A stretch of 64,000 nt of DNA from Octopus vulgaris (Eukaryota), in NCBI GenBank assembly GCA_951406725.2, contig OX597817.1, positions 84,196,001 to 84,260,000 on the forward strand, given 5' to 3'. Shown here piece after piece: positions 13,603-61,940 of this stretch. The translations under genes and the position numbers were made by a program. How positions within the stretch are numbered: the stretch's first letter is position 1; the number at the start of each line of letters is the position of its first letter. The notes beneath the pieces are model-generated. The model was not told where the DNA came from. It saw only the letters and a list, made by a program, of their open reading frames with translations, and ran no database searches.

Positions 13603-13759
13603 TATGCTTTATTAAGGAGTAGCAAAAATATCACCAAAACTGTTACTCAGAGTTTCAAGTTCTCGTTCGTCGGATGGGAACTGTCCGACAAACGGGAACG
13701 GGAAACTCTGAATAACAGTTTTTTTTTGTTATATTTTTGCCGCTTTTCAATAAAGTATA
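13603..13759. mobile_element. Head-to-head inverted pair of short PLE terminal repeats with variant hammerhead cores
   Basis: Arms 13603-13674 and 13684-13759 are imperfect reverse complements. Consensus of the two arms reads CUGU CCGACGA ACG GGAA CGU GAAA CUCUGAG UA ACAG (hammerhead layout with CUGA>CCGA). Confidence 0.6.
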
Positions 13760-14341
13760 TATATATATATATATATATATATATATATATATATATATTG
13801 TTGTATTTAGGAATGGTCATTTTGCCAGTTTAGCCAATAAAAACACGCGCACTATATATTTGGTGTTACTTTGCTTCAGCGTTATTTATTTTTTGCATTA
13901 ATTTTAATCTTATTTCGAGTTCTTTCGTCACACTCCTGTAACCGCATCAGTGGTCCTTTGCTTTCTTCTTTCTTATTTGTTTGTCTCCCTTACACACAAC
14001 AATAACAATAATAACAACCAATTACTCCCTTTACTTGTCACTCGTGAATTTCATTACAAACAACCTGGACCAAATTTCTTCTTAAGAAAAATTATATATT
14101 CATATAAATTAAATATTATATCATGAATAGCGATTGCGAAACCGGTAGATACGTTAAAAATTATATTATAACCATGTAAGTGTGCGTATTTTCCTTTTTA
14201 AATTTCTTATATACATTACAATCCACCACGTGGAGACAACCGAAATTCCTCTTTTCTGTTACTACTATATATATATATAATAATATATATATATATATAT
14301 ATATATATATATATATATATATATATATATATATATTTATA

Positions 14342-14735
14342 TTTACTCTTTACTCTTTATTCTTCACTTGTTTCAGTCATTTGACTGCGGCCATGCTGGA
14401 GCACCGACTTTAGTCGAGCAAATTGACCCCGGGACTTATTTTTTGTAAGCCCAGTACTTATTCTATCGGTCTCTTTTGCCGAACCACTAAGTGACAGGGA
14501 CGTAAACACACCAGCATCGGTTGTCAAGCAATGCTAGAGGGACAAACACAGACACACAAACATATACACACACATACACATATATATATACATATATATG
14601 ACAGGTTTCTTTCAGTTTCCGTCTACCAAATCGACTCACAAGGCTTTGGTCGGCCCGAGCCTATAGCAGAAGACACTGAACCCGGAACCATGTGGTTGGT
14701 TAGCAAGCTACTTACCACACAGCCACTCCTGCGCC
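14342..14735 (-). mobile_element. Bipartite CORE/Nin-like tRNA-SINE, near full-length
   Basis: Reverse complement of the 807-1210 element with a small deletion in the head. Further 3'-half copies at about 12895-13090(+), 13395-13552(-), 14780-14985(-). Confidence 0.85.
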
Positions 14736-15033
14736 TATATATATATATATATATATATATATATATATATATATATTAATCTCTTACTTGTTTCAGTGAT
14801 TTGACTGCAGCCATGCTGGAGTGCCACCTTTAGTCGTACAAATCGACCACAGAACTTATTCTTTGTAAGCCTAGTACTTATTCCTTCGTTCTTTTTTCAC
14901 AACCACCATGTTACAGAGCCATAAACACACCAACATCGGCTATCAAGCGAGGGCGGGGGGTGACAAATACAAACCCACAAATACATACATTTATATATAT
15001 ATATGTGTGTGTGTGTGTATAATTCATTAGCTT

Positions 15034-15150
15034 AGTCCTGATGAGTGACTATATTTTTAAATAGAATTAATTTTAGTTCGATTAAATTTTAAATCGAATT
15101 GATTTTATTATTATCTATTTGAAAATATAGCCACGAAGCGCACGTAGTCT
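15034..15150 (+). ncRNA. Degenerate type I hammerhead ribozyme with long stem II (PLE terminal repeat relic)
   Basis: CUGAUGA at 15038-15044, stem II GUG-A-CUAUAUUUU-UAAAUAGA / UCUAUUUG-AAAAUAUAG-C-CAC, then GAAG (for GAAA), CGCACG, GUA triplet. Stem I is weak. Confidence 0.55.
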
Positions 15151-58253: not shown

Positions 58254-58486
58254 CTATTGCTTTACTACCCACAAGGGGCCAAACACAGAGGGGACAACCA
58301 AAGACAGACAAATGGATTAAGTCGATTACATTGATCCCAGTGCGCCACTGGTACTTAATTTATCGACCCCGAAAGGATGAAAGGCAAAGTCGATCTCGGC
58401 GGAATTTGAACTCAGAGCGTAACGGCAGACGAAATACGGCTACGCATTTCGCCCAGCATGCTAACGTTTCTGCCAGCTCGCCGCCT
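58254..58486 (-). mobile_element. Nin-domain tRNA-SINE nested in the right arm of the PLE
   Basis: Minus strand AGGCGGCGAGCTGGCAGAAACGTTAGC, GAGTTCAAATTCC B-box, GCCTTTCATCCTTTCGGGGTCGATAAATTAAGTACCAG. Absent from the left arm. Confidence 0.85.
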
Positions 58487-59149
58487 TGTGTATGTGTGTA
58501 TATGTGTGCATGTGTGCATACGCATGTGTATGTGTATGCGTGTGCGCGCTTGCGTGTTCGTCCAAGCGGGTATGTGCGTGTGTGCGTGTATGTGTGTGTG
58601 TGCAGATGTGCGCATATACAGATGCGCACACTTGCATCAATATACACATGCACGCAAAACTATATGAGCACTTCTGTACACCCACATATAGAACTATATA
58701 CTTCCACATCCCACCCCTTCCTACTTCCCCATCAACCTGACAGACTTCTAGTCTATTTCCTGTCTTCTCTCCACGTGGTCAATTTACTGTTCGCCCTGCA
58801 GTATTTTCAAACTAACTGTTACCCATACACCAACATCAAAAGCCATGACACTGCATGACCTTCATCGACCTATCGCAATAATAACAATCAGCTCCTGTCA
58901 TTCAAATTCAAAATGGCTGACGACTAGCATCGTGCTTGAGGCTCAACAGTGCCAACGAATTTGAATCAAACTGTTTTTATCCACACATGTAACTCCCAAT
59001 AAATTGGTTCACTGTCCTTTATCTTATATATGTATGTATGTATGTATGTATGTATGTATGTATATATATATACATACATCTATATACACACACATATATA
59101 TATATATATATATATATATATATATATATATATATATATATATACACAT

Positions 59150-59360
59150 ATTATGTGACCGCGTGTGTATCGTTGGTGATTTCCTTTCTCCGTCTTCCTT
59201 TCCTTGGACCTTTCCTTTTTCTATGTTTCTGACGAAGAGCTCCGCTCGACACGTTAAATCCTCCTTCTTTCTTTCCTTTCCTGAGCGTCCAATAACACTA
59301 TACTTGTTCCACGTCCTCGCGTTGTTGTGTTTTCTCTTTGTTCATGTTTGGATTAACTAT
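59150..59360 (+). mobile_element. Short non-coding PLE-derived element in (TA)n with minimal hammerhead relic (59225-59259)
   Basis: GUUU CUGACGA A GAGC UCC GCUC GACA CG UU AAAU (GAAA>GACA). Same layout as 20584-20621. Confidence 0.6.
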
Positions 59361-59364
59361 ATAT

Positions 59365-61940
59365 ATGTATATTTAAATATTAATTTTTTAGGGAATAACA
59401 ATTCCGGCATAACAGAGGTTCTCAATGAAGAAATATATTTTAATTTAGAGACTGTATACCCCTACTTCTCGCCAAATAAAAGGAATACCCCTACTTCTCG
59501 CCAAATAAAAGGAATACCCCTACTTCTCGTCAAATAAAAAGAATTTTTATTTTAAATACCTACTGTTTTATTCCTTGGCTACACGTGTTTCATGAGGTAC
59601 ATTTTTGGGTTCCTAAACCGCTCCGTGTTTCCCTGGAACCCCTCTCAAGATGCCACCCCAATCATCAGCCCCTTATAACTTTATCAACGTTCAATACAAT
59701 AAACTATATTAAATTCTATAAGAATACGAATAGGAATAATTATTATATTAAACAGAATAACGTAAGTAACCTAAATAATGTTAATATAGTGAGTAATACA
59801 AACGTAAATGTAGACGAGAATAGAAACGTATATTATAATAATGATAAAAATAAAGATAGTATGTATAAAAGTAATAATAGAAGAACATACCGTAATAATA
59901 TGGAATTCAAGATGGTAATAAACAGGAAAAATATAAAGTATACAGATAGGTTGAGTAAAGGGGAAGGATTTAAAATTAAAAGTAAATCATATTGGAGATA
60001 ATACAGTAAATAATTTAGAAGATAATAATGAGACTGGGATAAATAAAGATAAGGGCATTAATAATAATATAAACATAAAGAAAAATAATAATAAAAAGAT
60101 ATGGTTGATTGTCCCATACGGTACTCAAATTAGAAATAATCTCATTAAAGATATTACTAATACAATTGAATCGTTTATTATGGAAAATAAAAAAATATAT
60201 CGAAATACTCTCTAAAAATAATCTAGGAGTGGGGTACTGAACGACTAATAACGTAGGGAATATTATATCATCAATTAATAAGCATAGGTTAAATAAATAT
60301 TACCATGACAAATTAAATAAGGATATGAATAGGAGTTATAGAGACCATAATAGTTGTACCTGTAGAGATAAAAACCGTTGTAAATTTAATGGAAGATGTA
60401 ATGTTAGTGATGTAGTATATAAATGTGTGGTTTCGGTAAAAGGAGATGGGAACGAAAATAGTGGTATAAATAATACAGATATTGAAAAATACCTAGATAG
60501 AATGTACATAGGTTCGACTTCGAATAAAATTAAGCAGCGAAAAGCACAGCACTTGAATTCATGTAAAAATAAAAAAAACTTTGGAATTCTACAGGACTAA
60601 GTAAATATGTTTGGAGTTTAAAAATGAAATTAATTAATTATGAATTAAAGTGGGAGATAATATGTAAAGCTAAATCATATAGAATAGGAAATAGGTCATG
60701 TTTATTATGTACCCATGAATTCATGGCGATATTATGGTCTAAAACTGAACTTCTTAATAATCAGGATGAACGTAAAATTAAATGTAAACATAGACTAAAA
60801 TGCCTTATTAATAACGCATAACCCTAAATTTTAGCGTAAGTATTTGTTAATACTATAATTATATAATTTTTTAATAGAAATAAAAACTTACCATTAGATG
60901 GTGGGATGAATAATAACTAGTGATAAAATGGGCGGAATAATACGGAATTATACGAAATAAAAAATTAATATTCCCATGATGCATTTTTGAAGTTTCGTGA
61001 ACCATGCTTTACTATTTAGACAATATGTTAATTAAATAATAGTTTAAAGTAGTAGGAAATAGGGTGTGAGTACTTCGCTGGACTTTACAATGTCAGGCCA
61101 TAATTAGGACGTTGTAGGATAATGGAGCTATCGGAGAATTGCATATTTTCCTTACTTTACAATCAAGTTATATTTATTTTATTATATTTTACTATATAAA
61201 TTTTAAAAAAAGTTATCAATCGTATCACTTGAAATTTTAAAAAAAAGTTACCATTCGTATCACTTGAAATTTTGCAGTTCGTATTAGAACTATAGCTCTT
61301 TTATTTTAAATTATCTCTTCGTAATTGACTTCATGTTTATTAACTTTTATTCGTGTATATTTTCCTTGCTATCTTTATTTTTATTTTTATTTTTATTTTT
61401 TACTCGTATTTTATTTTTACTCGTATTTACTTTTATTCGTATTCCTTTCGTTTTTATTCACATTTTTTTAATATTATTTAAAATAGTATTTGTAAATTTA
61501 ATTTTATTTGGAACACTATATATAACTAACATAGTTTTTTGTAAATTTTCGTATATTTTTTGTGATTTTTATTCCTTACTTTATTCGTGTAACTTTTATT
61601 TCTGTAACTTATCTTTATTTGAATTTTTATCTGAATTATGCATTCTACTGTAGAGTCCAGCGAAACTAAACTTACCTAATTTAAACATACTTATTTCACA
61701 AATATTTATGGGATTTAAAAATTAAAATATAGTTCATTGTATTGAACGTTGATAAAGTTATAAGGGGCTGATGATTGGGGTGGCATCTTGAGAGGGATTC
61801 CAGGGAAACACGGAGCGGTTTAGGAACCCAAGGATGTATCTCATGAAACACGTGTAGCCAAGGAATAAAACAGTAGGTATTTAAAATAAAAATTCTTTTT
61901 ATTTGACGAGAAGTAGGGGTATACTATTTCTAAATTAATA
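59365..61940 (+). mobile_element. RT-less Naiad-like PLE: thumb/linker plus GIY-YIG between near-identical inverted repeats of about 200 bp
   Basis: 59514-59710 and 61728-61922 are reverse complements with few mismatches. 60090-60821 gives KKIWLIVPY, GVGY*TTNNVGNII, CTCRDKNRCKFNGRC, VVYKC, YIGSTSN, STGLSKYVW, CLLCTHE, LLN..ERKIKCKH. A 29-bp unit is repeated three times at 59456-59540. Confidence 0.88.
61774..61860 (+). ncRNA. Hammerhead-like motif with very long stem II (also in the left arm, about 59576-59672, minus strand)
   Basis: GGGG CUGAUGA [about 70-nt branched stem II] GAAA CACGUG UA GCC. Palindromic stem III ACACGUGU. Stem I is poor (G-G opposition next to the cleavage site). Confidence 0.55.

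What the first reader, a model, noticed from the sequence alone, without database searches (positions are those of the whole stretch)
13603..61940. Recurring inverted-repeat PLE cassettes with outward-facing hammerhead ribozymes, from a 3-nt interior up to RT+EN
Seen: five elements with different terminal-repeat sequences (13603-13759, 16953-17765, 39383-39957, 55401-59025, 59365-61940) share one plan. Two terminal repeats lie head-to-head, the hammerheads read outward toward the ends (only a partial one in the right arm at 17.6 kb), one arm has an extra unpaired tail of about 40-110 bp, and the ends abut (TA)n (one end only at 13.6 kb). Interiors are 9 nt, about 0.6 kb, 3 nt, decayed RT+EN, and EN only. 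Known: PLEs carry hammerheads in their pLTRs and can have an inverted 5' pLTR. Inference: here the inverted form dominates across several families. This points to a fold-back or template-switch integration mode at (TA)n that generates ribozyme-bearing palindromes, some of which may propagate as MITE-looking non-autonomous units.
Basis: partly seen in the sequence, partly recalled or inferred. Interest (0 to 1): 0.75.

Follow-up and report, generated by a model that had tools for sequence, protein, structure and literature searches.

The report
Back-to-back Penelope insertions, two fixed ends
These five blocks are separate insertions of known Penelope-type jumping genes pasted back-to-back into TA repeats, and because nearly every such pair ends at one 'long' and one 'short' fixed site, they likely record both cut ends of the chromosome copying the same RNA at once, not a self-spreading palindromic element.

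Summary
All five inverted cassettes are real. The layout (inverted 5'-truncated copy, one-sided tail, hammerhead, (TA)n target) is already described for Penelope-like elements (PLEs). In position-ordered samples the inverted form is the majority: 32/51, 15/26, 15/29 and 6/6 loci in four window families, 16/20 in a young intact Hydra-clade family found on the way. Tandem copies lie inside the arms, so tandem versus inverted is no real alternative. The 39.4-kb element belongs to a 559-nt hammerhead tandem family (retrozyme-like). MITE-like spread is refuted: junctions differ between loci, and the one recurrent junction arose in different lineages. What I did not find in print: 92 of 94 scoreable pairs in six families have one long and one short end; arms of a locus are each other's nearest relatives (28/32); many pairs cannot be copies of each other. 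Best reading (0.7): twin target-primed reverse transcription from two fixed internal sites of one RNA, matching the two start sites mapped in vitro for a lizard PLE. Fold-back is not excluded. Raw reads were not available. The scan noted the same pattern before on other DNA (e1-8807173, e1-8672319, e1-8669888, e1-8672139).

The parts
13545..13674 (-). E1 left arm: 3' end of a PLE with long (tailed) end; tail about 13545-13602, cut by an unrelated repeat; hammerhead remnant lacking the 5' strand of stem I
   Evidence: family motif has 1247 exact matches
13684..13759 (+). E1 right arm with short end, followed by (TA)n; hammerhead core mutated
16953..17610 (-). E2 left arm, short end at (TA)n; complete type I hammerhead at about 16975-17062; the rest is family sequence
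   Evidence: 90% to locus L093
17611..17765 (+). E2 right arm: 3' half of the hammerhead plus about 110-nt tail, long end at (TA)n
39383..39628 (-). E3 left arm: part of a 559-nt hammerhead tandem unit (u185-443), short end; complete hammerhead at about 39560-39628
39634..39957 (+). E3 right arm (u190-541), long end; 15 small deletions, hammerhead core broken
55401..55928 (-). E4 left arm: 3' UTR, intact hammerhead core at about 55420-55490, short end at (TA)n
55929..56403 (-). E4 inverted N-terminal ORF piece (about aa 64-193 of the intact relative, with DKT motif); overlaps the start of the right arm by about 17 nt
56415..59025 (+). E4 right arm: decayed RT and GIY-YIG endonuclease (about aa 183-673 of the intact relative), UTR with an inserted unrelated repeat near 58314-58487, damaged hammerhead, partial tail
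59365..59710 (-). E5 left arm: hammerhead with long branched helix II (about 59570-59685), local triplication of a 29-nt piece, tail, long end at (TA)n
59711..61940 (+). E5 right arm: Asn-rich linker, CxCx5C motif, decayed GIY-YIG endonuclease (60196-60809), long UTR, hammerhead (61755-61870), short end at (TA)n

Best explanation
Each cassette is one insertion of a Penelope-like element (or of a non-coding RNA that borrows its enzyme), likely made by twin target-primed reverse transcription. Shown: two arms head-to-head; outer ends at two family-specific fixed sites 60-110 nt apart, one of each per insertion; random inner ends; (TA)n flanks; arms of one locus share variants; arms may hold several units. 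Inferred: the RT-endonuclease, probably a dimer, cuts both strands of a TA run; each 3' end primes cDNA on the same RNA, one at the long site and one at the short site; the two cDNAs stop and are joined 3' end to 3' end by microhomology or end-joining; if one cDNA fails a one-armed copy results. The template is more than unit length (uncleaved multimer or circle; not decided). The hammerheads are passengers of the element's 3' repeat, and the palindromes are by-products, not mobile units.
For: One long plus one short end in 31 of 31 intact E3-family pairs (p=4.7e-10 against a free choice), while one-armed copies are 10 long, 8 short. Same rule, read from tables, in E1 (14 of 15 scoreable), E4 (17 of 17, one with a shortened tail), E2 (6 of 6), E5 (9 of 9), and the young autonomous family (14 of 14 among 17 chosen loci; 15 of 15 scoreable in a position-ordered set of 20). 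Own arm is nearest in 28 of 32 E3 pairs, 1.3 expected; 40 variants sit in every covering unit of 12 autonomous loci, 37 across both arms. Arms that cannot be contained in each other by over 60 nt: 8 of 31 E3 pairs, 5 of 12 and 3 of 13 autonomous pairs. Either arm may be the longer, up to 12 units or 11 kb. In vitro, the lizard PLE PAc cuts and extends both strands, starts at two internal sites that bound the tail, and is predicted to be a dimer (PMC11167929).
Against: PAc showed no difference in start site between strands in vitro, so nothing there enforces one of each. Two possible exceptions: L152 (short end plus a 14-nt short-like piece) and L115 (long end plus a partly tailed, divergent arm). 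Near-symmetric centres are in excess (E3 11 of 31 within 30 nt, permutation p=0.0008; autonomous 7 of 14 within 20 nt, no permutation of 100000 reached it), which fold-back predicts too. Later deletion at the centre of a palindrome could make uncontainable pairs, and gene conversion could make arms alike; neither was excluded. One of seven multi-unit autonomous loci switches two linked variants in mid-array. No junction was confirmed in raw reads.
Confidence: 0.7

Rival explanations
1. Fold-back: one target end primes cDNA, its 3' end folds back and copies itself, and the copy is joined to the other target end at the second site; later deletions at the palindrome centre blur the symmetry.
For: Excess of near-symmetric centres; three junctions on a 6-nt palindrome; arms share variants by construction; E1 and E3 of the window have 3-9 nt centres.
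Against: 16 of 56 pairs are uncontainable by 60-1133 nt. A DNA copy would have to pass several long and short sites in multi-unit arms and stop at exactly the other kind of site; short-first events should give short-short pairs, at most 1 seen, although 8 of 18 one-armed copies are short-ended.
Confidence: 0.15
2. Self-priming on, or template switch to, an antisense transcript whose 5' end fixes the second end (proposed for rotifer Penelopes, PMC3846280).
For: Explains head-to-head polarity and palindromes at junctions; the E3 short end has a TATA-like word.
Against: Needs a sense and an antisense RNA from the same locus each time (arms share variants); one-armed copies end at either site equally; both sites are RT starts on a sense RNA in vitro.
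Confidence: 0.07
3. A double-stranded DNA intermediate is trimmed by the endonuclease at the two sites and then integrated (the tail was ascribed to endonuclease-mediated resolution in PMC8557442).
For: Fixed ends; the Penelope endonuclease needs the tail sequence for recognition (as cited in PMC11167929).
Against: The two ends of an inverted intermediate have the same sequence, so a cutter gives no reason for one of each; the inverted centre is left unexplained.
Confidence: 0.05
4. MITE-like palindromic units that spread as such, or assembly artefacts of long reads.
For: One junction recurs three times. E3's right arm has an unusual load of small deletions. No raw reads were seen.
Against: 29 distinct junctions in 31 pairs; the recurrent trio is not a clade. 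Asymmetric fixed ends, different unique flanks on both sides and 14-25% divergence between arms in old copies do not come from read fold-back.
Confidence: 0.03

Closest known systems
Complex tandem/inverted insertions of endonuclease-bearing PLEs (Craig et al. 2021, PMC8557442, passages and section 11 read; Arkhipova et al. 2013, PMC3846280, passages and Discussion read)
   Same: Inverted 5'-truncated copy next to the 5' end, tail at one end only, hammerhead in the repeat, (TA)n targets, microhomology at junctions, Asn-rich linker (E5).
   Different: Those papers call the tail optional, 30-40 bp, and ascribe it to endonuclease resolution or the inversion to self-priming. Here the tail is 60-110 nt, present on exactly one arm in 92 of 94 pairs, and both arms can be multi-unit arrays.
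Hydra clade of PLEs (PMC8557442, section 11 read)
   Same: The intact 708-aa relative has RWK, DKT, CxCx5C, CxxC and CxH motifs, a C-terminal GIY-YIG, a unit under 3 kb, a hammerhead and (TA)n targets; E4 shows DKT and E5 CxCx5C.
   Different: No tree was built; E1 and E2 have no protein of their own in the window; the relative's hammerhead core has C in place of U4.
Poseidon PAc of the green anole (Frangieh et al. 2024, PMC11167929, main text read)
   Same: Two internal start sites that bound the tail, downstream of the hammerhead; AT-rich target; both strands cut and extended.
   Different: Different clade; no strand-site coupling seen in vitro; inverted products not examined there.
Metazoan non-LTR retrozymes (PMC7229834, passages; bioRxiv 10.64898/2026.07.22.740005, first of 5 parts and passages; PMC4209133, passages)
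   Same: E3 family: non-coding tandem unit with one type I hammerhead and a palindromic loop 3; opposite-strand hammerhead pairs 100-700 bp apart were noted in Schistosoma.
   Different: 559-nt unit; arrays radiate from an inverted centre and carry PLE ends; the words inverted or head-to-head do not occur in that sense in the two retrozyme papers.
LINE-1 twin priming
   Same: Both target strands prime on one RNA; inversion with microhomology; E4's inner inverted segment looks like it.
   Different: In L1 the second primer anneals at a variable internal site and nothing is duplicated; here it is a fixed site near the first, giving an inverted duplication.

Membership tests
Endonuclease-bearing PLE | RT plus C-terminal GIY-YIG endonuclease in one ORF | tested here: met
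   E4 aligns to aa 64-673 and E5 to aa 521-699 of an intact 708-aa ORF; Pfam GIY-YIG only weak (E 0.005-0.013, below cut-off). An E1-family locus carries such an ORF (L178).
Endonuclease-bearing PLE | Direct and/or inverted pLTR with one-sided tail | tested here: met
Endonuclease-bearing PLE | Hammerhead motif in the repeat | tested here: met
   Core motif and helices by pattern and eye; not found by Rfam; activity untested.
Hydra clade | RWK, DKT and CxCx5C motifs, unit under 3 kb, (TA)n target | tested here: met
   All in the intact relative; DKT in E4, CxCx5C in E5.
Hydra clade | Placement in the clade by phylogeny; absence of the CCHH motif | not tested
   No reference alignment or tree was built.
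Non-LTR retrozyme (E3 family) | Tandem units each with a type I hammerhead | tested here: met
   559-563-nt units, up to 12 per arm.
Non-LTR retrozyme (E3 family) | No coding capacity | tested here: inconclusive
   No tblastn match of the PLE protein to an array (L170); no formal ORF scan of the unit.
Non-LTR retrozyme (E3 family) | Self-cleavage and circular RNA in vivo | not testable with these tools
   Only assembled contigs were served.
MITE | Copies share one interior and both ends, spreading as a unit | tested here: not met
   29 distinct junctions in 31 pairs; recurrent trio unrelated; ends asymmetric.
MITE | Target-site duplication of fixed length | tested here: inconclusive
   Both flanks are (TA)n, which hides any duplication.

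The most novel reading that the evidence does not exclude
PLE integration is an obligately asymmetric twin-priming reaction: one enzyme dimer on one more-than-unit RNA assigns each cut target end to a different fixed start site, so that inverted repeat, one-sided tail, tandem arrays and one-armed copies are all outcomes of one reaction, shared by autonomous PLEs and hammerhead retrozymes.
Probability: 0.55. Interest if true: 0.65.

Novelty: new member of a known kind. Interest (0 to 1): 0.45.

Why it matters
How PLEs, the closest retroelement relatives of telomerase, make their tandem/inverted insertions is stated as open in the papers read. The long-plus-short rule, the shared variants and the uncontainable arms give sharp predictions for the existing in vitro PAc system, and tie retrozyme spread to the PLE enzyme by an insertion footprint. 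Practically, such palindromes should be annotated as truncated PLE insertions, not as MITEs or miRNA-like hairpins.

Tried and rejected
Rfam found no hammerhead; its hits were microsatellite-driven miRNA matches. A conserved stable fold of the tail was not shown: z -2.3 and -2.6 for E2 and E3, -0.7 to +1.1 for E1, E4, E5. No autonomous partner of the E3 unit was found: the young family's repeat does not align to it. Circle versus linear multimer: unit-by-unit variants were mostly uninformative; 5' ends do not pile up at the hammerhead cut (1 of 80 in E3; one exact case in the autonomous family, L270) but do at u116-126 of E3 (11 of 80, 1.6 expected). Sequencing runs: no RNA holder listed; four runs laid were contigs only, no piece bridged the E3 junction, and 39690-39741 had no cover; none of this is evidence either way. 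The junctions of E4 and E5 remain unchecked in reads. Eighteen one-armed E1/E4 loci were extended to 7 kb upstream: one more inverted partner, one doubtful, no direct repeat. For 18 of 27 E5-family loci no partner lay within 1.5 kb and they were not extended. Literature searches for twin priming in PLEs found no paper stating the long-plus-short rule; older subscription papers on Penelope are not in the library and no supplements were read, so it may be in print there.
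Full report
Setting. The window is G000:C4:84196001-84260000 of a 2.8-Gb animal assembly in 227 contigs. An earlier scan note on the same genome calls it octopus; I did not check this. 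I name the five elements E1-E5 in window order.

Observation. All five inverted repeats exist at the given places, with hammerhead motifs reading outward. Rfam found no hammerhead; the motifs rest on core words and helix pairing. Five of ten arms keep an intact core. E1 has a tail on its left arm, cut by another repeat. The interiors are the unpaired 5' part of the longer arm: family sequence in E2 (90% to L093), decayed endonuclease in E5 and RT plus endonuclease in E4. E4 also has an inverted N-terminal ORF piece.

Families. E3 is part of a 559-nt hammerhead-bearing unit that forms tandem arrays; a 21-nt word has 880 exact matches. The words used for E1, E2 and E4 have 1247, 8 and 238 matches; the E5 word matched only the window, and a DNA search gave 40 scored relatives at 87-93%. 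A protein search with E4's RT piece revealed a young intact family: 2590-nt unit, 708-aa ORF with RWK, DKT, CxCx5C, CxxC and CxH motifs, the marks of the Hydra clade in PMC8557442 (section 11). No tree was built.

Does the inverted form dominate? I sampled by position. E3: the first 100 of 880 matches are 51 loci; 32 are head-to-head pairs by BLAST, none tail-to-tail, 18 one-armed (three with a tiny inverted piece by eye) and one split by a TA run. E1: first 30 of 1247 matches, 26 independent loci after merging two pairs and a segmental triplicate; 15 have a clear inverted partner, four more a weak or partial one; two have a non-abutting opposite copy 0.7-1.4 kb downstream. E4: first 30 of 238, 29 loci, 15 clear and three weak. 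E2: 6 of 6. Autonomous family: of 20 loci picked in order by a word that spans into the tail, 13 have a BLAST partner with the short end, two a tiny one, one an interrupted partner, four none. E5: 9 of 27 within 1.5 kb, the rest unresolved. No lone direct pair was found for E1, E2, E4 or E5 within the stretches examined; in E3 and the autonomous family tandem units lie within arms, on either or both sides of the centre. Both ends abut (TA)n in 30 of 32 E3 pairs, background 6.7%.

The two fixed ends. Each family has a short and a long outer end, 60-110 nt apart and downstream of the predicted cut site. In E3, 31 of 31 pairs with intact ends have one of each (p=4.7e-10), though one-armed copies split 10 long to 8 short. 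Read from the tables: E3 32 of 33 with two tiny arms counted, E1 14 of 15 (L120 dropped, cut by another repeat), E4 17 of 17, E2 6 of 6, E5 9 of 9, autonomous chosen set 14 of 14 (three of 17 not scoreable): 92 of 94, four of them with a shortened tail or blurred end. The position-ordered autonomous set adds 15 of 15. Possible exceptions are L152 and L115.

One template. For E3 pairs the short arm's nearest long arm is its own in 28 of 32 (1.3 expected; mean distance 1% against medians of 3-8%; two loci had too little overlap). In 12 autonomous loci 37 variants are shared by all covering units of both arms. Gene conversion could add to this.

Fold-back test. A folded-back copy must lie within the first arm. 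Over 60 nt of excess is seen in 8 of 31 E3 pairs (L136 and the window copy set aside for internal deletions; three more have 22-24 nt), 5 of 12 and 3 of 13 autonomous pairs. Against my reading: near-symmetric centres are over-represented, which fits fold-back in some events or two enzymes running off the same RNA end; and deletion at the centre of a palindrome after insertion could create uncontainable pairs.

Spread as a unit. 29 of 31 E3 junctions are distinct. Three share a junction on a 6-nt palindrome, but are 2.6-2.9% apart, each with closer relatives elsewhere: a hot spot, not a unit. Distances between paired hits also differ in E1 and E4.

Mechanism. The simplest account is twin target-primed reverse transcription on one RNA, one target end per start site, with joining of the two cDNA ends (overlaps mostly -7 to +7 nt). 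It borrows three in vitro facts from PAc: both strands cut and extended, two internal starts bounding the tail, predicted dimer; that paper saw no strand difference in start site and found uncleaved RNA the main substrate. As both sites lie only 30-300 nt downstream of the cut, arms longer than that need an uncleaved multimer or a circle; my data do not decide. All enzymatic steps are inferred.

What is known. The layout is in Craig 2021 and Arkhipova 2013; opposite-strand hammerhead pairs and the circle idea are in Cervera and de la Pena 2014; retrozymes as PLE derivatives in a 2026 preprint. My searches found no statement of the strict pairing or of twin priming for PLEs; older non-open papers and all supplements were unseen. 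The scan's own notes report the same pattern in other families; my reading was formed before and they are not independent support.

Limits. Only contigs of public runs could be laid; junctions are unconfirmed in raw reads, and E3's right-arm deletions may be assembly error. Expression and cleavage are untested.

Verdict. Real; new members of known kinds; MITE reading refuted; the value lies in a testable rule about PLE integration. Interest 0.45.

Noticed in passing
G000 C11:13692300-13705500, C1:57208800-57222600, C3:37223200-37238600 (L231-L237): A young intact PLE family with Hydra-clade motifs (2590-nt unit, 708-aa ORF, units 99-100% alike; 1258 exact matches of a 26-nt motif) forms whole-unit arrays on both sides of an inverted centre, up to 11 kb per arm.
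   Followed up: yes
window 55929-56415: E4's short arm jumps after about 530 nt to the ORF position where the long arm stops (about 17-nt overlap) and continues towards the ORF start, like an L1 twin-priming inversion inside a PLE inverted pair.
   Followed up: partly
window 62350 to about 65300 (L251): A sixth PLE on the minus strand: hammerhead core at 62427-62468, endonuclease and RT pieces, a 92-nt inverted duplication at 63489-63580; no inverted partner seen.
   Followed up: partly
window 22800-25740: Old inverted repeat (about 22928-23150 and 25494-25697), hammerhead-like core at 22883-22905 and an endonuclease remnant at 24349-24669: probably another decayed cassette.
   Followed up: partly
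window 23670-24119: A 99% complementary inverted repeat with a perfect inner hairpin between (CA)n/(TG)n runs, no hammerhead core found by pattern.
   Followed up: no
window 43160-44190 and 52034-52610: Inverted pair of another repeat after an (AAT)n run, with CTGACGA/CTGATGA words; family not identified.
   Followed up: no
G000:C1:57206500-57224400 (L233, L234): Two linked variants switch between the outer two and inner two units of the long arm; the short arm carries the outer alleles: a template switch, a mixed multimer or later conversion.
   Followed up: partly
E3 unit u116-126; autonomous unit u2331-2345: Hot spots of inner (5') ends: 11 of 80 in E3 and five ends in four paired loci plus one one-armed locus of the autonomous family; candidates for RNA 5' ends.
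   Followed up: partly
E1 family and the autonomous family: Hammerhead core reads CCGANGA instead of CUGANGA in the family majority; whether it cleaves is untested.
   Followed up: no
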